IMG/VR virus record: IMGVR_UViG_3300029305_004519
Location: 1 to 13,540 of that record
Strand: one strand, 5' to 3'
Origin: a virus
Length of the DNA: 13,540 nucleotides
Shown here in pieces: positions 632 to 11,672 of this stretch. Under the pieces are notes generated by a model. The model was not told the origin of the DNA. It saw nothing but the letters and a program-made list of their open reading frames with translations, and made no database searches. Position 1 is the stretch's first letter. Each line of letters begins with the position of its first letter. A program made the position numbers and the translations under genes.

Positions 632-1330
632 ATGGATAAGCTAAAACAGATGAAGGAATGCTTAGTTGGCATGGTTGAAGGCCAAGTTTATGGAAACATA
701 GACAAGGTTGACGCGCAAGAGCTAGGCGCCGCCGTGGATATGATTAAAGATTTAAGCGAAGCAATTTATTATTGCACTATTACTGAAGCTATGAAAGATG
801 AGGGCGAAGATAAAGAAAAAGAGGGTAAAGGTAAACATGGCATGATGTATTATCCTCGTACTACTCCTATGTATCATCTTCCTTATCCTATTGAAATGTA
901 TGATCCTCGTATGCGTGAAAGATATAATGATCCCATGTATGCGCAGGGCAATGGTGGATACAATTCAACAAGCACTTCTGGAGGCAATAATGCCCGTGGC
1001 GGCGGTACCCGTGGCTATCGTGAGGGAATGATGCCTATGGATTATTACCCAATGTATAACGATGGTACTATATATGAACAGGGAAATGGTCGTGGTAGCA
1101 ATCGTAATTATTCTGACATGAGAGACCCTCGTGAAGGTCGTAGCGGCGAGCGCCGTAAGATGTACATGGAAGGAAAAGGCATGAAAGATAAAACGCATCA
1201 AATGAAAGAGTTGGAAGCTTACATGCAAGAATTAACGCAAGATATGACTGAAATGATTGCTGACGCAACTCCTGAAGAAAAACAGATGTTGCAGCAAAAG
1301 ATCAGCACTCTTGCTACAAAAATTAAATAA
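632..1330 (+). CDS. Hypothetical 232-aa protein. Helical N- and C-terminal regions flank a low-complexity Met/Tyr/Pro/Gly/Arg/Asn-rich core with repeated PMY / MYD / YYP motifs.
   Basis: ORF with AGGGTGG RBS 7 nt upstream. Stop TAA overlaps the next ATG (TAATG at 1328-1332). Strong compositional bias is visible in the translation. Confidence 0.6.
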   Translation: MDKLKQMKECLVGMVEGQVYGNIDKVDAQELGAAVDMIKDLSEAIYYCTITEAMKDEGEDKEKEGKGKHGMMYYPRTTPMYHLPYPIEMYDPRMRERYNDPMYAQGNGGYNSTSTSGGNNARGGGTRGYREGMMPMDYYPMYNDGTIYEQGNGRGSNRNYSDMRDPREGRSGERRKMYMEGKGMKDKTHQMKELEAYMQELTQDMTEMIADATPEEKQMLQQKISTLATKIK

Positions 1331-1653: not shown

Positions 1654-1669
1654 TATCTTCCTTTTTTTT
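1638..1669. terminator. Rho-independent terminator shared by the convergent + and − gene blocks.
   Basis: Perfect 12-bp inverted repeat AGGAAGATATTA (1638-1649) / TAATATCTTCCT (1651-1662), followed by T8 on the + strand (1662-1669). On the − strand the same hairpin is followed by a CTTCTTATTTTG tract. The ruvC TAA stop is at 1668-1670. Confidence 0.6.
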
Positions 1670-2174
1670 ACCATGCAGCTGCACTATAATCTTTTTCTTT
1701 TTTTGGATGTAAAAATGCATGACCAATACATACAGCATCGGCTGTGTCATCACTAGTTAAAGATAATCCATATGTTCGATTTGCAAATTCTATATCCTTT
1801 TGTTTTTTCTATTCACGCTTTGAGGCGCGCCCATCCTCAATGCCGCATGTTGAGCGCCAAGAGCTTGGATACACCATTTCAATCTAAACTTCAGGATGTT
1901 TATCATGCATTTCAATATGAATAAACGCCTAAAGATACATAAGTGCACGAAAGGTATTAGTATTTTTACTATGATCTGGAATAACTTCTTCCATCACTAT
2001 TTTTTCAATTTTCATTTGTTCAACTATTGTTAAAATGCCGTCAACCATTTTATGGATTCTTTTATATAAATCGGTTGATGATGCGGTAATACAATTGCAT
2101 ACAAGCAAGTCTTTATCTTTAAACACTGCAAAACCAGTTGCTTTAGTTGAGCAATCTAACGCTAATAAGTACAT
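1668..2174 (-). CDS. ruvC: RuvC-like Holliday junction resolvase, 168 codons, with three in-frame TAG sense codons (plus-strand CTA at 1929-1931, 1884-1886, 1809-1811). Terminates at TAA 1668-1670.
   Basis: N-terminus MYLLALDCSTKATGFAVF is the RuvC fold catalytic Asp motif. After TAG the same frame continues ...AFIHIEMHDKHPEV[TAG]IEMVYPSSWRSTCGMRMGRASKRE[TAG]KKQKDIEFANRTYGLSLTSDDTADAVCIGHAFLHPKKEKDYSAAAW. The C-terminal DDTADAVCIGH matches the conserved RuvC C-terminal acidic/His motif (E. coli DAADALAIAITH). RBS GGAGGTG lies 5 nt upstream of the ATG at 2174. The standard-code ORF track gives only the 81-aa N-terminal piece. Confidence 0.75.
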
Positions 2175-2197
2175 AAATGCACCTCCATTCTAGGTAC

Positions 2198-2226
2198 ATT
2201 ATACTTAAAAATTTTTATTAAGTCAA
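2198..2226 (-). promoter_or_regulatory. Sigma70-like promoter P(ruvC): TTGACT-17-TATAAT.
   Basis: − strand -35 TTGACT (plus 2221-2226 agtcaa), 17-nt spacer (2204-2220), -10 TATAAT (plus 2198-2203 attata). The -35 is contiguous with the T6 tail of the upstream terminator. RBS and ATG of ruvC follow about 20 nt downstream. Confidence 0.5.
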
Positions 2227-2227
2227 A

Positions 2228-2252
2228 AAAGAGCAGATTAATTCTGCTCTTT
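2228..2252 (-). terminator. Rho-independent terminator ending the dut-containing operon. The stop codon of the upstream small ORF sits in the loop.
   Basis: Stem AAAGAGCAGA (2228-2237) / TCTGCTCTTT (2243-2252), loop TTAAT. On the − strand it is followed by TTTTTT (2225-2230 as aaaaaa on plus) running into the TTGACT -35. Confidence 0.55.
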
Positions 2253-2468
2253 CTATTGTTCTTGTTCTTTTTGAAGTTCTGTATTATATTTTTGAAGTGC
2301 TGTGTTATATTCAAGCTAAGCTTGCATTTGCGCCTCGTTATAGAGATCTTTTAAAATGATTGCCGCTTGATAAATAGGCAAGTGTAAGTCATTAATACCA
2401 TAATTAATAACACGAGCGACTTCTTGTTTAATCTATTCAAAAGCAACCTACTCAGGCATAATAGGCAT
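2238..2468 (-). CDS. Hypothetical 76-aa Gln/Glu/Lys-rich, probably coiled-coil, protein containing four in-frame TAG sense codons (plus CTA at 2448-2450, 2433-2435, 2316-2318, 2253-2255). Ends at TAA 2238-2240.
   Basis: − strand ATG at 2468 preceded by GAGGTG (overlapping the dut TGA). Translation is MPIMPE[TAG]VAFE[TAG]IKQEVARVINYGINDLHLPIYQAAIILKDLYNEAQMQA[TAG]LEYNTALQKYNTELQKEQEQ[TAG]KEQN. There is no TAA/TGA over 77 codons in about 33% GC DNA (chance about 0.015). It has nucleotide-level tandem repeats (TTTTGAAGTnCTGTnTTATAT x2) that correspond to heptad-like NTxLQK repeats. It is invisible to standard-code ORF calling. Confidence 0.5.
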
Positions 2469-2479
2469 TAAACTTCACC

Positions 2480-2965
2480 TCACTTATTTCCGCTAGATCC
2501 AAAACCTCCTACACCACGGGCTGTAGTGCCAATAGAAGTTGTTTCATTGAAAACAATAGGATTGAAGGGTTGAACAATAAGTTGGGCAATTCGTTCTCCA
2601 TGCTCAATTACTTGAATTTGATCTGAAGTATTTTTAAGTGCGACTATTACGGCACCTCGATAGTCTGCATCGATAATGCCTACAGTATTTGCAAGCACAA
2701 GACCGCGTTTTGTTGCATTGCCGCTACGAGGATAGATTGCGCCAAATGTGCCTTGAGGAAGCGCAATGGCAATGCCTGAAGAAATCTTACGTACCTCTCC
2801 CGGCGCCAAAGTAACGCGACTGGCGCCTTCAAGATCTGCATGCAGGTCATATCCAGCCGCCCAATCACTTCCATGAGTTGGCTCTTGCGCAGTCGGCGAA
2901 AGTTTTACATAATCAACAATAGTCGCATAATAATCAATTTGTGGAATAAAATTCATTTCAGTCAT
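2480..2965 (-). CDS. dut: dUTP diphosphatase (trimeric dUTPase).
   Basis: All five dUTPase motifs: AGYDL, PRSG, GIIDADYRG, GERIAQL, RGVGGFGSSG. Stop TGA. Confidence 0.9.
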   Translation of the reverse strand: MTEMNFIPQIDYYATIVDYVKLSPTAQEPTHGSDWAAGYDLHADLEGASRVTLAPGEVRKISSGIAIALPQGTFGAIYPRSGNATKRGLVLANTVGIIDADYRGAVIVALKNTSDQIQVIEHGERIAQLIVQPFNPIVFNETTSIGTTARGVGGFGSSGNK

Positions 2966-2967
2966 TA

Positions 2968-3219
2968 TTAAAACGCTCCAATCTTATATTCAACACTAGC
3001 TTCTCCGACGGGATCTTTAGGGTCATCAAAAGTCTTTACTAAAGTTACAATATAATATTCGTCAATAATTTCTCCTTTTGCTTTACGCTCTTTCTTTACT
3101 GAAGAATATTTTGATAAAATATATCTATTATCAGCCTTTGCTGCGTTGATTAATTCAGTCGCTTCTAATTCACTATCTGCGCGATGCTCTTCTGTTGTTT
3201 TTAATAAATATTTAGCCAT
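2968..3219 (-). CDS. Hypothetical protein (83 aa).
   Basis: ORF with AAGGAG RBS 9 nt upstream (GAGACTAAGGAGATAAAAGGAATG). Stop TAA 2 nt before the dut start. Confidence 0.6.
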   Translation of the reverse strand: MAKYLLKTTEEHRADSELEATELINAAKADNRYILSKYSSVKKERKAKGEIIDEYYIVTLVKTFDDPKDPVGEASVEYKIGAF

Positions 3220-3238
3220 TCCTTTTATCTCCTTAGTC

Positions 3239-3508
3239 TCACTTTACAAAACTAAATTTTAATTTAGCTTTGCCATAGCGAATTACTTGTCCATTCTCTG
3301 CATCTTCTAGGATCTTTGCACCATAAGAAGTAGATCCAGAAAAATCAATCTCTACGATATTGTATTTATCTGCAAGAGCATATACAATATCTCGAATATC
3401 ATCTGGTTTTACGCCCATTTGATCAACCAGAGTTCCATCTTTAATTACATAAATCTTTTGAAATGGTGCAGTAGGGCTAGTCCATACAATAATTTTATTA
3501 GTTTCCAT
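3239..3508 (-). CDS. Hypothetical protein (89 aa). Start moved to the internal ATG (METNKIIVW...).
   Basis: The long 127-aa ORF overlaps the upstream gene by 104 nt. The internal ATG at 3508 has a perfect RBS AAGGAGAG plus 5 nt (plus 3514-3520 ctctcctt) and removes the overlap. Stop TGA. Confidence 0.55.
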   Translation of the reverse strand: METNKIIVWTSPTAPFQKIYVIKDGTLVDQMGVKPDDIRDIVYALADKYNIVEIDFSGSTSYGAKILEDAENGQVIRYGKAKLKFSFVK

Positions 3509-3518
3509 TTTTCTCTCC

Positions 3519-3947
3519 TTAATATTCAAGCACTGCTTCTCCATAGGGGAAGAGATAATATGCAAAACATCCTTCAGAGTTACGAATCCACAACTCCCAT
3601 GTATTAGCCTCTTGTTCATCAATTACTAAAATTTCTCCACGATTAGACATACATTCAAGAATATCATTAACTGCGCTCATAACCGTCACTGGAGGAGCTG
3701 ATTTCCAAGTGCTTGTTTTATCAAGATTAAAGACAGTATAATCCTTTAATTCATTACATAAAAGCATTAGATATTTTTGATGGAAGTTATGCGTTACCCA
3801 TTGGCGTAAATGATTTTTAGCCAAGTCAAGCTCAGCTTCTGTAATTACTGGCTCATTTGCCATGAGTTGCTTATTCATTTCATATAAATTACCAAGACTC
3901 ACTTCTGATGTTTGCTTTGGAATTTTATCTTTATAATTAGCTTTCAT
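3519..3947 (-). CDS. Hypothetical protein (142 aa). First gene of the P2 transcription unit.
   Basis: ORF with RBS TAAGGAGCAAGATATG. Stop TAA. Confidence 0.6.
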   Translation of the reverse strand: MKANYKDKIPKQTSEVSLGNLYEMNKQLMANEPVITEAELDLAKNHLRQWVTHNFHQKYLMLLCNELKDYTVFNLDKTSTWKSAPPVTVMSAVNDILECMSNRGEILVIDEQEANTWELWIRNSEGCFAYYLFPYGEAVLEY

Positions 3948-3977
3948 ATCTTGCTCCTTAAATTACTTTATATAATA

Positions 3978-4006
3978 ATTATAATTTAATTTTTTTTAGT
4001 TGTCAA
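3978..4006 (-). promoter_or_regulatory. Consensus sigma70-type promoter P2: TTGACA-17-TATAAT.
   Basis: − strand -35 TTGACA (plus 4001-4006 tgtcaa), 17-nt spacer (3984-4000), -10 TATAAT (plus 3978-3983 attata). It lies about 30 nt upstream of the RBS and ATG at 3947. Confidence 0.55.
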
Positions 4007-4197
4007 TTATCTGTTTTTATATACATTCCGCAAGTGCAAATTGCGCCGATGGGCGCCTCACGAAACTCTTTACACATACATTTAGTATCCTCATTGCGGA
4101 AAATCTCAAGCACGCATGGGCAATGACCTTGCGCCTCTTTTATAGCCGCACGAATTTCTGCAGCCAATTCTGCACTGGCATATTGTCTTATTTTCAT
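4003..4197 (-). CDS. Small (64 aa) Cys-rich protein (HCPC...CMC...CTC), possibly metal-binding. Last gene of the nrd operon.
   Basis: ORF whose ATG (4197-4195) overlaps the nrdG TAA stop (TAATG). RBS AAAGGA upstream. Six Cys and one His in 64 aa. Stop TGA overlaps the P2 -35. Confidence 0.5.
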   Translation of the reverse strand: MKIRQYASAELAAEIRAAIKEAQGHCPCVLEIFRNEDTKCMCKEFREAPIGAICTCGMYIKTDN

Positions 4198-4679
4198 TAG
4201 CTAATCCTTTCCGCATATTGGTTTTGAGAAGCCAACTTTACGCCAAGTATTTTATCATAATGTGATTCGCTATTGGGGATATAGCGCCCAAATTTTATTA
4301 TGATGTTTGGAAATTGTTTTAATTCAATTAATTGATTTTCAATCTCATTTTTATTATAACCCGTATAAATAACAACATCGTCCATTATAGAATAACAATT
4401 GCGAAAAACAAAAAGGAAGTCGCGCAGGCCGTCGAATGTGTCAAACGGCTCTAATCCCTGGAAGCATACGGCGCGCGCAATTGGATTTGATTTGTAAAGA
4501 TTAATAATTGAGTCTATTGAGTATTCTTTAGTTGGGGCGGTAGCCAGTATGCTATTTTGACACACTGGCTGGCCGCACTCTTTATCACATTTAAAGCCTT
4601 TACAGATAGGAGATTCTATTGTCATACAAGGTGTTTTATAATTGACGAAATCTGTATCTATAATACCTTTCACTTTCAT
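4197..4679 (-). CDS. nrdG: Anaerobic ribonucleotide reductase activating protein (radical-SAM NrdG, short phage-type).
   Basis: Immediately downstream of nrdD with an ATGA overlap (4676-4679). ...VIYTGYNKNEIE resembles T4 NrdG ...VWTGYKLDEL. FQGLEPF resembles the GGDP(L) motif. N-terminal Cys cluster CKGFKCDKECGQPVC, with non-canonical spacing relative to CxxxCxxC. Stop TAA. Confidence 0.75.
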   Translation of the reverse strand: MKVKGIIDTDFVNYKTPCMTIESPICKGFKCDKECGQPVCQNSILATAPTKEYSIDSIINLYKSNPIARAVCFQGLEPFDTFDGLRDFLFVFRNCYSIMDDVVIYTGYNKNEIENQLIELKQFPNIIIKFGRYIPNSESHYDKILGVKLASQNQYAERIS

Positions 4680-6613
4680 TTATTAATTGGCTCCCATTTT
4701 CTCATTTTATATTCATTAGTACGCTCTTTAGACCATGTCTTAATAGGTGTATAAAATCCAACGATGCGAGTATATTCTGTTTCTATTGGTTTACCGCAGC
4801 AAGGACACGTTGTACCATAGAAAGCGTGATTATTCTCGCAGGCTTGAATCTTTGTGTTAAATGCAAAATAGGTTACTCCAGCATCAGAGATATAATTTAC
4901 CATATCCCAAGCTTTCTCGAAGCTATCAAAAGGAGAGTCGATATTCGCATGAAGAATAGATCCTCCATTGCAATAGCCATCAAACTCTGCGGCAATGCGT
5001 ACGCGTTCAGCAAGAGTTGTTTGAATGCCAAGAGGAATAAATTGGTTGCCATAAAGCGGAAGATCAAATACCTCTGCCTCGGGATAGAAGAATTTATCTT
5101 TTTTCATTAACTTAGCGGCAGCGCTTTCTCCTGGTATCTGCTCTGTATTTACATGATAATCAGCACCTGTTTCCAAAATAAAATCATCTGCCACTTGGCG
5201 CATGGTTTCAAAAATTTTCTTGCCAAGATTAGATGCTTGTTCTGTATAATAGACATTGCCAAATTCATCTGTACGAGTATAGCCAAAACGCTTCATTGTT
5301 TCATAAACTCCAATAAACCCAATGGTGTTATAAAGATGTTCAAAATCAACCAGCCCATTGGAAAAATTTGGTAAAAGCCCCTTCTCAACATTTCGCTTAA
5401 TAATATTTCTAACGCAGTGTAGAGCTTCAAGATTTAATCTTGTGCGATACTTAAGTTGTTCTAAATATTCTTCTTCGGTATCTACATCAAGCGCAAGGCG
5501 CGCAAGATTGATTGTAGACACCTTAACAGAGCCTACTTTAAGTGCTGTGCCGCCAATTGAGTTAAAGTAGCCTAAATCTTTAATGTCACTCTTCAAACGG
5601 CAACAGTTAGAAAGTGAAGTTACTGAATCGTCAATAAATAAATTACTGTCAGACCAGCGCATATTATGCTTTACGGCCCAGCGTGCAAATTCCTCATCCT
5701 GGAACTTACCTTCTTGTTTTAGAAGTGAGATTGAAAGCACTGGAAAAGTAAACATGTTCTTATCTCTAATATCCGCAACAGTCTCCATGTACCATTTTTG
5801 GAATTCAATAACTTCTTCCTCATAGTCAATCATAAATTCTCCATTCGGGAACTCACTGCCGCCAAATAGAGCTTCATAATAAGGTCTATCAAATACACTG
5901 GTATTCGTAAATGCAGATTGTGATCCATCACGAACATAGGGCTGATTCACTGCATAAACAAAGCGTTGGAAATTTTGGCGTGCGTATTTCTCTCCATTTC
6001 CGCTACTCTTGATACCAAGATAATCTTCTTCTATATCTTTATGCCAGAAGTAATACATATATGGAATAAGATTAGGAAGTCCGACCGCACCCGAAGAGCG
6101 ATTAGAAGCATAGCTAATAAACTCCTTAACAAAATCAACAAAAGTAGTTAAATGTTGAGCTGGCTCTGGATTAAACGGTGCGCCGATGAAGTACAATCCT
6201 TTTTCAGCTAGGTCTTTGAGATCATAAGCAAAACAATAATGTTTAAATGTTGAGGTATCAGCGTCATGCATATAAAGTTGACCAATCCACTCTGCGCGCA
6301 GCCATTCGTTTGCGCGTTTGAATCCAAAGTGTTTTTGCATTTCATAGTGAATTTTGTTATAAGCTAATAATTTTCTATGAGGTTTAGGCATTTCGTTTAA
6401 GAGAGTTACGATATCCTTTTTACTTACATTGCTATTGCCATCAATGCTTGCGTTAGCGACGACTTTAGTATCGATAAAGTTATCTATGAAATCGGTATAT
6501 GATAATTGATCATCATCAAAACCATTTAACCTAGCTAAATCAGTTCCGTACTCTCCCTAAAGTTTATTATAAGCAGTAACAAAATTCTTTTTTAATCTAA
6601 CATTAATTTCCAT
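4676..6613 (-). CDS. nrdD: Anaerobic (class III) ribonucleoside-triphosphate reductase NrdD, 645 codons, with one in-frame TAG sense codon at codon 19 (plus CTA 6557-6559). The track ORF 4676..6391 is only the portion after the first downstream Met.
   Basis: Strong RBS AAGGAGCAACAAAAGAATG at 6613. Frame reads MEINVRLKKNFVTAYNKL[TAG]GEYGTDLARLNGFDDDQLSYTDFIDNF...NEMPKPHRK... continuous with the 571-aa ORF. The ATG at 6391 has no SD. C-terminal Zn ribbon (C...CPCCGKP) and glycyl-radical motif TRIVGFY (resembling RVCGY). Stop TGA. Confidence 0.85.
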
Positions 6614-6818
6614 TCTTTTGTTGCTCCTTAATCCATTTGATAGCTTCAGTAAATTTATAAGTTACATTATCAACCTGTAAAATAGGTGCAGAACGGAACC
6701 CCATTGCCGCCATTACTGCTTGATCAGATACTGTGGTATATTGAATCTAAGCGGCATCTAATTTTGTTTTAAGAACTTTACATTGCGGGCAACCCGTTGA
6801 GTATAAAGTAATATTCAT
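6603..6818 (-). CDS. nrdH: NrdH / glutaredoxin-like redoxin (71 codons) with one in-frame TAG at codon 24 (plus CTA 6747-6749).
   Basis: RBS GGAGAAAATCAAATG. Translation is MNITLYSTGCPQCKVLKTKLDAA[TAG]IQYTTVSDQAVMAAMGFRSAPILQVDNVTYKFTEAIKWIKEQQKNGN. The CPQC active site lies N-terminal of the TAG and the cis-Pro region (SAPIL) C-terminal of it, so both halves of the thioredoxin fold need readthrough. It overlaps the nrdD start by 11 nt. Stop TAA. Confidence 0.7.
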
Positions 6819-7529: not shown

Positions 7530-7701
7530 TTTTATTTTCTCCTTTTGTAAATTTCCTTATCCAAGCTTTATATTCTTCTTGAGCTTGAGCGAGATGCTTT
7601 AAAATAATATCTCGCTCAATGCTGCTATCTGTTCCTACTAAAATATGATACATAAACTCATTTTCATAAGTTTCTTCAGTGTAATCTTTTTGAATCATCA
7701 T
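7519..7701 (-). CDS. Hypothetical protein (60 aa), translationally coupled to dnaE.
   Basis: Its ATG overlaps the dnaE TGA (ATGA at 7698-7701). Stop TAA 8 nt into the gmk-like start region. Confidence 0.5.
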   Translation of the reverse strand: MMIQKDYTEETYENEFMYHILVGTDSSIERDIILKHLAQAQEEYKAWIRKFTKGENKNEN

Positions 7702-10700
7702 TCTTCCATATCCTTCCTTTCATGGACTAACTCCATATCTCTTCCATCGTTGAAAAGTGAAATCTTATAGATTTGATGAGTAGGAGTATGCTTGTAGGTT
7801 TTGGTTACGAACTGGTCACCACGCCTATAGCCCGTTAAGAGTAGCATCGTTCCTCTTTTGAACCAGCCTTTTTCCGTCACTTTCTTGCTTCCATCATCTT
7901 GAAGCTCCGACAATTGTTTCTTGTATTGCGCGTAGTATTCCTTCGTAAACTTAACAGTTACAACACCGCTTGGAGTTAACAAAGTGATGGACGCTTTATT
8001 ATCATTCTTTGCGATTACTGTTCCGATAATCTTATAGGTTTTCCAAATTGGAATTTGTTGGCCATTACGCTTGAAATAATATTCTGCTTCCGGGTTTTCA
8101 GGCAATGCAAAGAAATTTGAAATACCGTACTTATGGGTATTAATATTTGCTAATTCATGCTCATGATAGTAAAAACATAACGATTCCATTTCCCAAGAGG
8201 ATAAAGAACCTTGAGCATATTTATTCCAAGTATCCATAAAGAGCTGCGTATTAAGTTCGCGCAAAACTTCGCTCTGATTCTCCTTTAACCAGTCTCTGGC
8301 GCCGTCCATTTGTTTTTGATAAATTCCATCCCAAGTCTTCTGTTGAATACAAGTTAAACCATTAATAACTTCTAATTTTTCAATATCAAAGTTATCTTTA
8401 TAGAATTTATAGCAAGGTTCGTCAAATACAAAGTATTTTCCAACTTTTGTATTTGCTTTGAGATATTTATTAAATTCAAATACTCTACGCTCAAAGTCAA
8501 GTGACTCTGGAACCAATCCACGCTGAATAAGCCCATTAAAGTTTTGTAAAGTCAGTTTGCTCTTAGGCTCACAAGCCTTTGATAAATAATATGCCATGAC
8601 AACAAAACGAGGATGAATATTTAACTCTTTACCCCATTCTGTCTCAAGTCTATCAAAGGCGCCCGCCTTAATTAGAGAAATCATCTGCGTTTTATTAAGC
8701 GGACAACGCGTCATAAAATCGGCGATATTAGCATAAGGTCTGCCGCTTATTATCTGCTCAATTACTTCGCTATTGATTCCGCTCAATGCTTTCATACCGA
8801 AGAGGATTTGATTATTCTCAATATCAGGCTTAAAGCTAAATTGAGATTTATTTATATCAACTAAAGATACATTAATACCTGCTGACAAAATATCACCAAG
8901 TGCCTTTGCTAGTTTGGTATAATCTGTCTGCTTATCTTTTGCTTCTTCATCGTCATCTTCATTATCATATCCTTCAAGCGAACCACTATTAACGATTAAG
9001 TTTGCAGTATTCCAATAAATAGGATTCCATCTTGTGGCGGCGTATGCTGTCTGAAAACCAATAAAGCTATAAGCAAGCGCATGGATAATGGAAAACGAGT
9101 ATCCCATTTGCGGGCCGATACCATGCTTCCAAACGTAATGACCCATACATGGGGAGCTAGCCTGGTCAAGAACTTGTTGTTGCAAAGCAGGGATCTTAGA
9201 CATTTGCTTCTTTCCGACGATTTTTCTGGCGGCGTTGGCGTCCGCAAGGCTAAACCCACAAATCTTAGGATCCATCAACATCTGCATCATCTGCTCCTGA
9301 GAAGGAGGAACACCATGAGACTTTAAGAAGTAAGGTTTTAATACTTCTTGTTCCTCTTTAGTAAGACCAAATTCATCCATTTCTTTATACCAAAGGTTGA
9401 TATTATTTTTGAAACGAACATACTTTTCCATTGGTGTTTCTTGACCTTTTTCATTAGTCATAAGTCGCATCAAACCATTGGCATCCGCCAGCTCAAGAAT
9501 ACTTGATGGACGAATCTTCTTAGCGGCTTGGGCGCCCACATCTGAATCAAATTGGAACAATCCTAAAACTTCAACATTTTGAATTGGCTTCCAATACTTT
9601 TCTTCTTCAATAGGTAATACATTTGGATGAAAGTATTTATCATATATTTGGCGCAAGGTCATATCTGACTCTAATTCACCAGTCTCTTGCAACATGTTAA
9701 TGGTTTCTACGAGTTTATCTTGTACTTCCGTTACGAGGAAGTCGTATTTTACCATTCCAAGCGCCTCACAAGTGTGAAGGTCAAACTGCGTTATAACCTC
9801 TCCTTTTGGAGTTCTCATGAAAGCGCCAAATTCATATGGATCTTCATCAAACAAAATAACTCCAGATGCGTGAGATGAGCGCTTGTTCTTAAGACCTTCA
9901 ATCGAAGTCATAATTTCCAAAAGCCCAGGATAATGATTTACTTCTCTAACGAACGAGGCCACTGGCTTACGATCTTTATCTGGGTTACCATTAACCACAT
10001 CATTGATACTCCACAAGAATCCTCTCTCTTGCGGAACAAGAGAAGTAAGATATTGCGCCATATCAACATCAATACCGTCTGGATATTCTTCACTACGATA
10101 GCCGCGGCAAGCGGTCAATATTGCGCTCTTTGTGGTTTCTGTACCAAAGGTTGCAATAAGTGTACAACCTAAGTTAGCGCGAGACAGTTCATCAATATCT
10201 GCATTAAACTTGGCGCCACGCTCTTCCTTAATCTTTTTAAGAATGTAAGGTCTTTTGCTTGGACATAGATCTAAGTCTATATCGCCGAGCTCGATACGTT
10301 CCTTATTAAGGTAGCGCCAGAAGGGAAGGTTCCACTCTATAGGATCAAGTTGGGTAACTCCAAGCAGATAATGGTTTAGACCTGAGCAACTTGAACCACG
10401 ACCGGCGCCAACCATAGAACCGCACTCCCAAAACAGATCAATATAATGCTGAAGTGTAACAGGATATGCGAACATATTTGTTTCCAGTTTTTCACTAATC
10501 GTTCTTTTGATATCCGCCTCTTCTTCAAGTCTATCCAAATATTGTGAATGATCATTAACCAAATCATAAAGAGTTGCTTGTTTTTTATCGCTCAAACTCT
10601 CCAAACATTGATTTACCCAATACCTCTCCACTTGATTATCAGAATTTAGCAATTCGGTTAAAGTTGGATAGTGTATCGCAATAAAGTATTCTTCTTCATT

Positions 10701-11672
10701 ACAAGGCTTTGTTAAATCAACCTTAGGATACTCTTTTACTTCAACTTTGGGAATTCTTTGCTTATGACGAATACTATAATTTTCAATTTTATCATAGATA
10801 GATAAGCTATTTTTAAATAAATTGCTAATATAATAATCATCATTGAAAGATTTTCGTAAGTTTTCAAAAATCTCTTCTTCAGTTTGGAGATAAGAATATT
10901 CATAGAAACTATCTACTTCTCTTTCTCCGCCTTTGGAATTAAGATATGCTTTATGAACATATCTATCTTCCTTTGAGAGATAGTGTGCGTCACTGCCAAT
11001 TACCATTGGAATTCGCATTGCATCAGAGATTTGACGCAACTTTTTATTAACTACTATCTGATCTCTTGAAGCGGCGGGCGCACACTCCAAATAAAAGTCA
11101 TCTCCAAAAAGATTCTTACACCAAGAGATAAAATCAACTATATGGTTATATTCTCGTTGTCTTGTTTCCATATCAAACATAGCTTCTGCATTTATCATAT
11201 TTGCAACTGCTGTTGATAACTCTCCACCGAGACAAGCAGTTGTTGCTATAAGTGAATCTGGATATTTATTTACGATTTCTTTAAGGTCTGACTTAAGAGT
11301 TACCACTCTCTCCATACCACGATCCCAATAGCTATTGAGCCAAGCGCGCGATGATAATTCTCTTAATGCGCGCCATCCGACGGAATTCTTAGCCAAAAGT
11401 ATAAAGTGATAATACTTTTGACTCATGTCTCTTGTATCGCAGAGATATATTTCATTTCCAAGAGCCACCTTAAAATCAGGATGCTCTTCTCTTATCTTTT
11501 CACCGTAGAAACTTGCGGCGGGCAGGTTACTTAAACATTCATGATCAGTAATACTTACACCGGCAAGTCCAATCTTCACGGCTTTATCAATTAAATCTTC
11601 TACACGGTTAATACTATCAAGCAGTCTTGTGTTTGAAGTATCAGTATGCGTGTGGATTTCAAATCGAAGCAT
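7698..11672 (-). CDS. dnaE: DNA polymerase III alpha subunit-like (C-family, DnaE-type) replicative polymerase, 1324 aa. It contains no TAG codon.
   Basis: N-terminal PHP domain (FEIHTHTDTSNTRLLDS...GLAGVSITDHECLSN). Length and C-terminal OB-fold-like region are typical of DnaE. RBS GAGAGGAGTAAAAGATG. Stop TGA. Confidence 0.85.
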   Translation of the reverse strand: MLRFEIHTHTDTSNTRLLDSINRVEDLIDKAVKIGLAGVSITDHECLSNLPAASFYGEKIREEHPDFKVALGNEIYLCDTRDMSQKYYHFILLAKNSVGWRALRELSSRAWLNSYWDRGMERVVTLKSDLKEIVNKYPDSLIATTACLGGELSTAVANMINAEAMFDMETRQREYNHIVDFISWCKNLFGDDFYLECAPAASRDQIVVNKKLRQISDAMRIPMVIGSDAHYLSKEDRYVHKAYLNSKGGEREVDSFYEYSYLQTEEEIFENLRKSFNDDYYISNLFKNSLSIYDKIENYSIRHKQRIPKVEVKEYPKVDLTKPCNEEEYFIAIHYPTLTELLNSDNQVERYWVNQCLESLSDKKQATLYDLVNDHSQYLDRLEEEADIKRTISEKLETNMFAYPVTLQHYIDLFWECGSMVGAGRGSSCSGLNHYLLGVTQLDPIEWNLPFWRYLNKERIELGDIDLDLCPSKRPYILKKIKEERGAKFNADIDELSRANLGCTLIATFGTETTKSAILTACRGYRSEEYPDGIDVDMAQYLTSLVPQERGFLWSINDVVNGNPDKDRKPVASFVREVNHYPGLLEIMTSIEGLKNKRSSHASGVILFDEDPYEFGAFMRTPKGEVITQFDLHTCEALGMVKYDFLVTEVQDKLVETINMLQETGELESDMTLRQIYDKYFHPNVLPIEEEKYWKPIQNVEVLGLFQFDSDVGAQAAKKIRPSSILELADANGLMRLMTNEKGQETPMEKYVRFKNNINLWYKEMDEFGLTKEEQEVLKPYFLKSHGVPPSQEQMMQMLMDPKICGFSLADANAARKIVGKKQMSKIPALQQQVLDQASSPCMGHYVWKHGIGPQMGYSFSIIHALAYSFIGFQTAYAATRWNPIYWNTANLIVNSGSLEGYDNEDDDEEAKDKQTDYTKLAKALGDILSAGINVSLVDINKSQFSFKPDIENNQILFGMKALSGINSEVIEQIISGRPYANIADFMTRCPLNKTQMISLIKAGAFDRLETEWGKELNIHPRFVVMAYYLSKACEPKSKLTLQNFNGLIQRGLVPESLDFERRVFEFNKYLKANTKVGKYFVFDEPCYKFYKDNFDIEKLEVINGLTCIQQKTWDGIYQKQMDGARDWLKENQSEVLRELNTQLFMDTWNKYAQGSLSSWEMESLCFYYHEHELANINTHKYGISNFFALPENPEAEYYFKRNGQQIPIWKTYKIIGTVIAKNDNKASITLLTPSGVVTVKFTKEYYAQYKKQLSELQDDGSKKVTEKGWFKRGTMLLLTGYRRGDQFVTKTYKHTPTHQIYKISLFNDGRDMELVHERKDMEE

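What the first reader, a model, noticed from the sequence alone, without database searches (positions are those of the whole stretch)
1668..6818. TAG is a sense codon here: nine in-frame TAGs in four genes, zero TAG terminators
Direct reading of the − strand shows ruvC (3 TAG), a 77-codon ORF (4 TAG), nrdD (1 TAG) and nrdH (1 TAG) continuing in frame through TAG to a TAA/TGA. In each case conserved protein elements lie on both sides of the TAG. RuvC has the N-terminal Asp motif and the C-terminal DTADAVCIGH. NrdH has the CPQC site and the cis-Pro region. The nrdD RBS and nrdH coupling sit upstream of the TAG. Every one of the 23 genes in the window terminates at TAA (14) or TGA (9), never TAG. 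The interruptions are exclusively TAG, never TAA or TGA. That pattern argues against pseudogenisation or sequencing error and for stop-codon reassignment of the kind reported for genetic-code-15 phages (TAG to Gln). The Q/E-rich contexts, for example EQEQ[TAG]KEQN, fit Gln, but this window alone cannot fix the amino acid.
Basis: partly seen in the sequence, partly recalled or inferred. Interest (0 to 1): 0.9.

Follow-up and report, generated by a model that had tools for sequence, protein, structure and literature searches.

The report
Phage reads TAG stop as glutamine
This stretch of a roughly 130-kb gut or rumen phage uses the stop codon TAG as a glutamine codon, a known phage trick, but its sister lineages appear to read TAG as glutamate or TGA as tryptophan.

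Summary
With only TAA and TGA as stops, the − strand carries intact ruvC (3 TAG), a 76-aa ORF (4 TAG), nrdD (1 TAG) and nrdH (1 TAG). No gene has an in-frame TAA or TGA. None of 22 genes ends in TAG.

Solved structures or a confident fold model match across every TAG in RuvC, NrdD and NrdH. In relatives the TAG columns hold CAA/CAG. Pooled over 66 TAG sites in the window's lineage, Gln scores +27.7 nats, Lys −27.0 and Glu −72.7.

A relative with DnaE 93% identical encodes a tRNA(CUA) with its own promoter-like site. This tRNA resembles the published tRNA-Sup-CTA of phage phAss-1. TAG use is gene-specific: 0 in 100,409 DnaE codons across 77 relatives, against 18 per 1000 in RuvC.

The window is therefore a new member of a known kind, a code-15 phage. 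It has no GenBank phage closer than about 40% DnaE identity.

The unexpected part lies outside the window. A sister lineage places TAG at invariant Glu positions (296 sites: Glu +230.8, Gln −344.6) and carries a different tRNA(CUA). A third lineage reads TGA as Trp. I found no report of TAG→Glu in phages.

The parts
1668..2174 (-). ruvC-type Holliday-junction resolvase gene, 168 codons, with sense TAGs at 1929-1931, 1884-1886 and 1809-1811
   Evidence: Pfam DUF3882 matches residues 3-150 and RuvC matches 4-96. The AF2 model of a 92%-identical homologue has pLDDT 89.9. Its top PDB hits are RuvC of D. radiodurans, P. aeruginosa and T. thermophilus and of Lactococcus phage 67, over about 160 columns. 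Codon 82 aligns with CAA/CAG in 23 of 23 non-TAG orthologues.
2238..2468 (-). 76-codon ORF of unknown function with four sense TAGs (2448-2450, 2433-2435, 2316-2318, 2253-2255)
   Evidence: Orthologues in L001, L008 and L009 are collinear at 40-44% identity. Codons 12 and 51 align with CAA. No Pfam family matches.
2198..2226 (-). sigma-70-like promoter match (TTGACT-17-TATAAT) in front of ruvC
   Evidence: Consensus scan, 11 of 12 matches. This is a pattern match only, not a tested promoter.
2228..2252 (.). G+C-rich hairpin just after the orf76 stop and before the ruvC promoter-like site
   Evidence: The terminator-like scan reported it on the + strand. The palindrome followed by a T-run also reads on the − strand. 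Its function is inferred.
4197..4679 (-). nrdG-like activating enzyme gene with no TAG
   Evidence: Weak Pfam Fer4_12 match and a position directly downstream of nrdD.
4676..6613 (-). nrdD (class III anaerobic ribonucleotide reductase), 645 codons, with a sense TAG at 6557-6559 (codon 19)
   Evidence: Pfam NRDD E=4e-92. Residues 3-639 align to T. maritima NrdD 4COI residues 3-642, E=1.7e-147, across codon 19. Codon 19 aligns with CAA/CAG in 13 of 16 sequences placed in that alignment column. In the printed alignment all 13 collinear NrdD orthologues read Q there.
6603..6818 (-). nrdH-like redoxin gene, 71 codons, with a sense TAG at 6747-6749 (codon 24). Its stop overlaps the nrdD start.
   Evidence: Residues 1-54 align to NrdH-redoxin 1R7H residues 1-61, across the TAG. 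Sixteen orthologues are collinear. The TAG column is variable (G, N, K), so it does not identify the amino acid.
7698..11672 (-). dnaE-type DNA polymerase III alpha gene, 1324 codons, no TAG (the contrast case)
   Evidence: Pfam PHP, DNA_pol3_alpha, finger and HHH_6 domains. It holds 54 CAA/CAG and 0 TAG. There are 0 TAG in 77 orthologues, 100,409 codons.

Best explanation
The window comes from a large (about 130 kb) tailed phage, probably of gut or rumen Firmicutes, in which TAG is a glutamine codon (genetic code 15).

Shown: nine TAGs lie inside intact, conserved genes. In relatives these positions hold CAA or CAG. No gene here ends in TAG. Close relatives encode a tRNA with a CUA anticodon. 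It has its own promoter-like site and hairpin and sits about 29 kb upstream of dnaE, among TAG-free genes.

Inferred: after infection this tRNA is transcribed, charged through the host's glutamine pathway, and outcompetes release factor 1 at TAG. Genes without TAG, such as dnaE, the topoisomerase and ligase genes and the genes upstream of the tRNA, can be translated at once. TAG-rich genes, above all the ruvC resolvase, yield full-length protein only once the suppressor has built up. The recoding would then act as a translational timer or safety catch for a nuclease that would harm replicating DNA if made early.
For: Anatomy of the ORFs and absence of TAG terminators.

Collinearity across the TAGs. 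NrdD matches 4COI over residues 3-639. NrdH matches 1R7H over residues 1-54. RuvC matches Pfam families, and its AF2 model (pLDDT 89.9) hits RuvC structures.

The amino acid. RuvC codon 82 aligns with CAA/CAG in 23 of 23 orthologues and NrdD codon 19 with CAA/CAG in 13 of 16. TAG and Gln codons interchange between the window and relatives L001, L002 and L009. Pooled over 66 TAG sites in the window's lineage, Gln scores +27.7, Lys −27.0 and Glu −72.7. Of the sites where at least 90% of homologues share one residue, 7 of 9 are Gln.

The tRNA. A tRNA(CUA) lies at L101:281-355, on the same contig as L008, whose DnaE is 93% identical to the window's. It is also on two further contigs. It has TTGACA-17-TATAAT upstream and a hairpin downstream. 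Its acceptor stem, anticodon arm and T-loop match phAss-1 tRNA-Sup-CTA, which its authors typed as Gln with tRNAscan-SE (PMC10607447).

Gene specificity. RuvC plus orf76 have 7 TAG against 11 CAA/CAG, while DnaE has 0 against 54 (Fisher p=2e-5). Across the clade RuvC has 18 TAG per 1000 codons and DnaE has 0 in 100,409. The 16 genes upstream of the tRNA in the relative hold only 2 TAGs.

Precedent. Borges et al. describe standard-code replication genes and recoded late genes in such phages (10.1101/2021.08.26.457843).
Against: The window has no tRNA, and the source genome was not recovered. There was no match in IMG/VR or in GenBank phages. The tRNA link therefore rests on relatives at 93-95% DnaE identity.

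Four of the nine TAG columns are uninformative or hold other residues: NrdH codon 24 (G/N/K), RuvC codon 97 (E/K/Q), and orf76 codons 7 and 72.

Overall sequence similarity could not assign the tRNA's amino-acid identity.

The timing model does not fit neatly. nrdD and nrdH are usually early or middle genes, yet each carries a TAG. The structural genes next to ruvC carry few or none. There are no expression or proteomic data.
Confidence: 0.88

Rival explanations
1. TAG is a sense codon here but encodes glutamate, as it appears to in the sister lineage of the same clade, rather than glutamine.
For: In about 20 or more related contigs TAG sits at invariant Glu positions. RuvC codon 97 of the window aligns with GAA/GAG in some close relatives. 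If the host is a Firmicute without GlnRS, a Gln-type suppressor would first be charged with Glu. This last point rests on general knowledge of the GluRS/GatCAB pathway, not on a test here.
Against: In the pooled likelihood for the window's lineage, Glu scores −72.7 against +27.7 for Gln. RuvC codon 82 is Gln in 23 of 23 orthologues, including those of the Glu lineage, which use CAA/CAG there. The tRNA(CUA) of the window's lineage belongs to a different family from the one on Glu-lineage contigs.
Confidence: 0.05
2. The TAGs are genuine stops. The four genes would then be pseudogenes or split genes, or the TAGs would be assembly or sequencing errors.
For: Under code 11 the genes fragment. Metagenomic assemblies do contain errors.
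Against: Only TAG interrupts genes, never TAA or TGA. Independent assemblies from other samples show in-frame TAGs in the same genes, at shared and at different positions. Protein conservation continues after each TAG. A matching tRNA(CUA) exists in the lineage.
Confidence: 0.02
3. TAG remains a stop codon in principle, and the genes are expressed through leaky, partial suppression. That would be programmed read-through by a phage or host suppressor, not a full change of code.
For: In an infected standard-code host, decoding must compete with host RF1. TAG is rare (9 against 163 CAA/CAG in the window) and concentrated in a few genes. No RF1 inhibitor or RF2 gene was seen in the roughly 52 kb examined in a relative.
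Against: No gene in the window ends in TAG. In the rough clade-wide count, TAG is the first stop after an aligned C-terminus in 3% of genes in the window's lineage, against 8.5-13% in relatives without TAG recoding. Three or four TAGs in one short gene would give almost no full-length product unless suppression were efficient. This rival differs from the best explanation in degree rather than kind.
Confidence: 0.05

Closest known systems
Genetic code 15 phages: TAG→Gln recoding in crAss-like, Lak and the 'gemstone' clades (Borges et al., 10.1101/2021.08.26.457843; proteomic validation in PMC9523058)
   Same: In-frame TAG at Gln positions, no TAG terminators, a phage-encoded tRNA(CUA), and a replication polymerase kept in standard code while other genes are recoded.
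   Different: The most heavily recoded gene here is the ruvC resolvase, not a lysis or structural gene. nrdD and nrdH also carry TAG, while the neighbouring structural genes carry few or none. The clade has no GenBank phage closer than 39.6% DnaE identity (SPbeta YorL).
Agate phages of Borges et al.: 154±27 kb, a ~127 kb TGA-recoded lineage from cattle and pig, and closely related TGA-recoded and standard-code members
   Same: Similar contig sizes (120-146 kb), animal gut or rumen sources, homing endonucleases inserted in early genes, a mix of TGA-recoded, TAG-recoded and apparently standard-code relatives, and replication genes in standard code.
   Different: Membership could not be tested, because no Agate sequence was available. 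Borges et al. report only TAG→Gln and TGA→Trp. This clade also has a TAG→Glu lineage.
Phage phAss-1 and the proposed genus Phassvirus (OQ749652, PMC10607447)
   Same: A siphovirus-type genome of about 136 kb from the human gut. It uses code 15 and has dnaE, nrdD/nrdG, dUTPase and RuvC-like genes. One of its tRNA-Sup-CTA genes shares acceptor stem, anticodon arm and T-loop with the tRNA found in the window's lineage.
   Different: It is only distantly related: DnaE 36% and RuvC 22% identical, with no nucleotide-level match. Gene order differs. In phAss-1 the suppressor tRNAs sit next to nrdD, which is not so here.
Peritrich ciliate nuclear code (NCBI table 30, TAA/TAG→Glu). Cited from memory.
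   Same: It is the only established code I know of in which TAG means glutamate, as inferred for the sister lineage.
   Different: It is a eukaryotic nuclear code with both TAA and TAG reassigned. It is unrelated to phage suppressor-tRNA systems and does not apply to the window itself.

Membership tests
Code-15 (TAG→Gln) recoded phage | In-frame TAG inside conserved genes, with homology continuing on both sides | tested here: met
   Nine TAGs in four genes. NrdD aligns to 4COI over residues 3-639, NrdH to 1R7H over residues 1-54, and the RuvC fold model matches RuvC structures.
Code-15 (TAG→Gln) recoded phage | TAG columns occupied by Gln codons (CAA/CAG) in homologues | tested here: met
   RuvC codon 82: 23 of 23. 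NrdD codon 19: 13 of 16. orf76 codons 12 and 51: CAA. Pooled over 66 sites: Gln +27.7, Lys −27.0, Glu −72.7.
Code-15 (TAG→Gln) recoded phage | TAG not used as a terminator | tested here: met
   0 of 22 genes in the window. The rough clade-wide count gives 3% in this lineage against 8.5-13% in relatives without TAG recoding.
Code-15 (TAG→Gln) recoded phage | Genome encodes a suppressor tRNA with anticodon CUA | tested here: inconclusive
   None in the window. One is present on three contigs of the lineage, including the contig whose DnaE is 93% identical to the window's. The window's own genome was not recovered.
Code-15 (TAG→Gln) recoded phage | The suppressor tRNA has glutamine identity | tested here: inconclusive
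   It resembles phAss-1 tRNA-Sup-CTA, typed as Gln by tRNAscan-SE in PMC10607447. It has U1·U72, G2-C71, G3-C70, G73 and G10, which match the E. coli tRNAGln identity set as I recall it. Overall similarity to typed tRNAs gave no clear isotype.
Code-15 (TAG→Gln) recoded phage | Gln detected at TAG positions in the protein | not testable with these tools
   This needs metaproteomics of the source sample.
Agate clade (Borges et al.) | Placement within the Agate clade on the large-terminase tree | not testable with these tools
   No terminase lies in the window or the fetched loci, and no Agate reference sequence was available. The resemblance rests only on size, source and mixed codes.
Phassvirus (phAss-1 group) | Nucleotide similarity and synteny with phAss-1 | tested here: not met
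   No megablast match in GenBank phages. DnaE is 36% and RuvC 22% identical, and only 6 of 22 window proteins match at all.
RuvC-type resolvase (RNase H fold, DEDD site) | RuvC fold and conserved acidic catalytic residues | tested here: met
   Foldseek probability is 1.00 to RuvC structures 7W8D, 6LW3, 4LD0 and 4KTW, with TM 0.7-0.83. D7, E62/E63, D142/D143 and D146 are invariant in 24 homologues.
Class III ribonucleotide reductase NrdD | Full-length similarity to a solved NrdD, including the C-terminal glycyl-radical and Cys-rich region | tested here: met
   E=1.7e-147 to T. maritima NrdD over residues 3-639. The RIVGF and CPCCG motifs align to RIVGY and CPVCG.

The most novel reading that the evidence does not exclude
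The window belongs to a phage clade in which stop codons have been reassigned at least three ways. The window's lineage reads TAG as Gln, a third lineage reads TGA as Trp, and a large, mostly rumen-derived sister lineage reads TAG as Glu. I found no report of TAG→Glu for any virus or prokaryotic system. The Gln and Glu lineages carry two unrelated tRNA(CUA) families. If the hosts are Firmicutes that make Gln-tRNA from Glu-tRNA through GatCAB, switching between the two meanings could need only a change in whether the suppressor is amidated. That would make this clade a natural experiment in how a codon changes meaning.
Probability: 0.55. Interest if true: 0.85.

Novelty: new member of a known kind. 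Interest (0 to 1): 0.5.

Why it matters
For the window itself the value is practical. Annotating it with table 11 truncates RuvC, NrdD and NrdH, so this phage needs table 15. It also represents a large clade with no GenBank phage nearby: at least 80 IMG/VR contigs and more than 100 database RuvC clusters.

Two points go beyond routine. First, recoding is sharply gene-specific. The polymerase never carries TAG, while the resolvase carries it heavily in both the Gln and the Glu lineages. This gives a concrete, testable case for the idea that recoding delays translation of proteins that are dangerous early in infection.

Second, close relatives give the same codon different meanings and use different suppressor tRNAs. 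If TAG→Glu holds up, it adds a code not yet in the tables used for phage annotation. Tools that assume TAG=Gln would then place the wrong residue at catalytic glutamates. It would also supply a naturally occurring amber-suppressor tRNA that may insert Glu, which could interest genetic-code engineers.

Tried and rejected
1. Finding the source genome. An exact 40-mer search in IMG/VR gave nothing, and megablast against GenBank phages gave nothing.

2. Reading residues from database homologues. The database called these genes with code 15, so its 'Q' can be a TAG. I switched to codon-level alignments.

3. A first likelihood test on all TAA-delimited ORFs. It was swamped by wrong-frame conservation, which produced spurious Y, L and C signals. 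I repeated it on real-frame ORFs with HSPs of 25-65% identity.

4. tRNA search near dnaE. There was none in 85 loci or in 11 GTDB loci.

5. Walking along a contig with an exact-match search. It gained only 543 bases, because stored stretches are chunked.

6. tRNA search near gyrB and dnaE in the Glu lineage with ARAGORN and Rfam. Nothing was found. The tRNAs turned up only through a degenerate anticodon-loop plus T-loop pattern.

7. Assigning tRNA isotype by global similarity. The result was inconclusive: 65-76% identity to many isotypes.

8. PDB sequence search with RuvC. It gave no meaningful hit. Fold prediction was needed.

9. Pyrrolysine. ARAGORN prints 'tRNA-Pyl' for any CUA anticodon. 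I rejected this reading because the TAG columns are Gln or Glu, and no pyl genes were seen in the regions examined.

10. Stop-codon census after aligned C-termini. The trend is in the expected direction, but the method is crude. It undercounts TGA and counts contig ends as TAA, so I give it little weight.


Full report
**Observation.** I re-called ORFs with only TAA and TGA as stops.
- A 168-codon ORF at 1668-2174 has TAG at codons 82, 97 and 122.
- A 76-codon ORF at 2238-2468 has four TAGs.
- A 645-codon ORF at 4676-6613 has TAG at codon 19.
- A 71-codon ORF at 6603-6818 has TAG at codon 24.

I count 22 genes, of which 13 end in TAA, 9 in TGA and none in TAG. No gene has an in-frame TAA or TGA. 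Coding density rises from 89.9% under code 11 to 95.9% with TAG as sense. The window has no tRNA gene.

**Are these real genes that run through the TAGs?** Pfam identifies NrdD (E=4e-92), dUTPase, guanylate kinase, a four-domain DnaE and a RuvC/DUF3882 protein whose match spans residues 3-150, so it covers all three TAGs.
- The full NrdD aligns to the solved T. maritima enzyme over residues 3-639 (E=1.7e-147). The 74 residues upstream of the code-11 start, including codon 19, therefore belong to the conserved protein.
- NrdH aligns to NrdH-redoxin 1R7H over residues 1-54, across codon 24.
- An AlphaFold model of a 92%-identical RuvC homologue, built with 23 further homologues, has pLDDT 89.9. 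Its best PDB matches are bacterial RuvC and the RuvC of Lactococcus phage 67. The acidic catalytic residues are invariant.
- The 76-codon ORF has collinear orthologues in three relatives but no known family.

**Which amino acid?** A protein search found 120 full-length RuvC relatives with Q at the TAG columns. The DNA of five of them showed that the database had translated TAG as Q. I therefore worked at the codon level.

I fetched 80 IMG/VR loci around DnaE relatives (60-95% identity, contigs up to 146 kb) and aligned orthologues codon by codon.
- RuvC codon 82 aligns with CAA/CAG in 23 of 23 non-TAG orthologues.
- NrdD codon 19 aligns with CAA/CAG in 13 of 16.
- orf76 codons 12 and 51 align with CAA.
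- NrdH codon 24, RuvC codons 97 and 122, and orf76 codons 7 and 72 lie in variable columns.

Relatives carry TAG where the window has Gln, and the reverse.

A likelihood test used real-frame ORFs and alignments of 25-65% identity, pooled over 66 TAG sites in the window's lineage (WIN, L001, L002, L008, L010, L024). Gln scores +27.7 nats, Lys −27.0 and Glu −72.7. Nine sites have at least 90% of homologues sharing one residue, and seven of those are Gln.

**Mechanism.** No tRNA lies within 10 kb of dnaE in any relative. I walked upstream along IMGVR_UViG_3300029705_000054, whose DnaE is 93% identical to the window's. This found a tRNA with anticodon CUA about 29 kb upstream of dnaE. The same gene lies on two further contigs.
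- It has TTGACA-17-TATAAT about 110 nt upstream and a hairpin after it.
- It sits just before gyrB-like, gyrA-like and ligase genes.
- The 16 genes upstream of it hold only 2 TAGs.
- Its acceptor stem, anticodon arm and T-loop match one of the three tRNA-Sup-CTA genes of phage phAss-1. Those authors typed that tRNA as Gln with tRNAscan-SE (PMC10607447).

My own attempt to type the tRNA by overall similarity was inconclusive.

Charging by the host and competition with RF1 are inferred. So is the timing role.

The timing idea rests on a strong gene bias. In the window, RuvC plus orf76 have 7 TAG against 11 CAA/CAG, while DnaE has 0 against 54 (p=2e-5). Across the clade, DnaE has 0 TAG in 100,409 codons and RuvC has 18 per 1000. 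A promoter-like site and a hairpin set ruvC apart from the genes upstream.

This agrees with the model of Borges et al., in which standard-code replication genes are translated first and recoded genes later. The fit is imperfect. nrdD and nrdH each carry a TAG, and the adjacent structural genes carry few or none.

**Comparison with what is known.** TAG→Gln recoding in gut phages is well established (Borges et al.; PMC9523058; PMC10607447). The window is a new member of that kind.

It is not close to any GenBank phage. The best DnaE match is SPbeta YorL at 39.6%. phAss-1 is only a distant relative, with DnaE 36% identical.

By size, source, inserted homing endonucleases and mixed codes, the clade resembles the 'Agate' phages of Borges et al. 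I could not test membership.

Relatives also appear in MAG bins labelled uncultured Bacilli, Clostridium, Erysipelotrichaceae and Endomicrobiaceae. This hints at Firmicutes hosts but proves nothing.

**The unexpected finding outside the window.** In about 20 of the DnaE loci, and in dozens of loci around gyrB, TAG does not sit at Gln positions. It sits at Glu positions.

Examples:
- The catalytic 'MEEV' of RuvC reads 'IM##V' in L067, 'LE#V' in L079 and 'VM#DV' in L075.
- The invariant Glu of the guanylate-kinase motif (34 of 34) is TAG in L077 and L080.
- Three Glu columns (43-45 of 46) of an 83-aa protein are TAG in the same two loci.
- In the NrdD N-terminus, the window has TAG at the Gln column, while L074, L077 and L080 have TAG at the adjacent Glu column.

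Pooled over 296 sites, Glu scores +230.8, Lys −265 and Gln −344.6. Of the sites where at least 90% of five or more homologues share one residue, 43 of 45 are Glu. The gyrB region gives the same answer.

A pattern scan for CUA anticodon loops found tRNA arrays on two contigs of this lineage, the contigs of L131 and L041. These arrays hold a tRNA(CUA) unrelated to the Gln-type one, with C1-G72, G2·U71 and A73.

A third set of relatives has in-frame TGA at Trp positions.

Borges et al. state that they saw only TAG→Gln and TGA→Trp in phages whose code differs from the host's. Five literature look-ups found no report of TAG→Glu in phages. The searchable library is incomplete, so prior description cannot be excluded.

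**Verdict.** On its own it is a known phenomenon in an undescribed clade, which makes it moderately interesting. The clade context is the part worth following up: resolvase-focused recoding, two suppressor tRNA families, and probable TAG→Glu in the sister lineage.

Noticed in passing
Related loci L077, L080, L079, L074, L067, L075, L037, L044, L048, L054, L160, L122, L129 and others. For example, L080 ruvC at 19065-19547.: A sister lineage (DnaE about 60-66% identical to the window's) has in-frame TAG at invariant glutamate positions, including the catalytic Glu of RuvC and the guanylate-kinase motif. Pooled over 296 sites, Glu scores +230.8 and Gln −344.6. This looks like TAG→Glu, which I could not find reported for phages.
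   Followed up: partly
L201:4138-4213 (contig of L131) and L261:1532-1607 (contig of L041); also L228, L249, L254 and L289: Contigs of the Glu lineage carry tRNA arrays with a tRNA(CUA) family unrelated to the Gln-type suppressor. It has C1-G72, G2·U71, A73 and a 10-nt D-loop. Its amino-acid identity could not be assigned from sequence.
   Followed up: partly
L051, L050, L085, L056, L014, L033, L031, L030, L026, L082, L015, L032: A third group of relatives has in-frame TGA at tryptophan positions (for example L051: Trp +108 nats). The clade therefore also contains TGA→Trp recoded phages. Other relatives show no recoding signal.
   Followed up: partly
L261:2898-2972: ARAGORN calls a tRNA with anticodon UUA (labelled 'tRNA-Stop', an ochre-suppressor type) in the tRNA array of a Glu-lineage contig. 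I did not check whether TAA is ever in frame there.
   Followed up: no
L001:1-3105; also L058, L059, L191 and L193: In some relatives dnaE is interrupted. In L001 it is called as 838-aa and 492-aa pieces with a GIY-YIG endonuclease gene between them. Several loci have 5.1-kb dnaE matches instead of 3.9 kb. This looks like intron or homing-endonuclease insertions. The window's dnaE is uninterrupted.
   Followed up: no
window 3978-4006 (− strand): A perfect sigma-70 consensus (TTGACA-17-TATAAT, 12 of 12) lies between the 64-codon ORF (4003-4197) and the 142-codon ORF (3519-3947). This suggests an internal promoter within the − strand gene block.
   Followed up: no
window 632-1330 (+ strand): A 232-aa protein with a long low-complexity middle rich in G, N, R, Y and M, and no Pfam match. 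It lies in the short + strand block (211-1653) that converges on ruvC. These three genes have no TAG here but carry a few in relatives.
   Followed up: no
L184-L194 (GTDB genome contigs): Phage contigs of this clade, up to 139.6 kb, are binned into species-representative MAGs named uncultured Bacilli (rabbit gut), Clostridium sp., Erysipelotrichaceae, Gastranaerophilales and Endomicrobiaceae. This is either a hint at the host or bin contamination.
   Followed up: no
window 3239-3622 and 3519-3947 (− strand): The mechanical ORF 3239-3622 (TTG start) overlaps the upstream gene by about 100 nt. A later start near 3508 is more likely, so the true start of this gene is uncertain.
   Followed up: no
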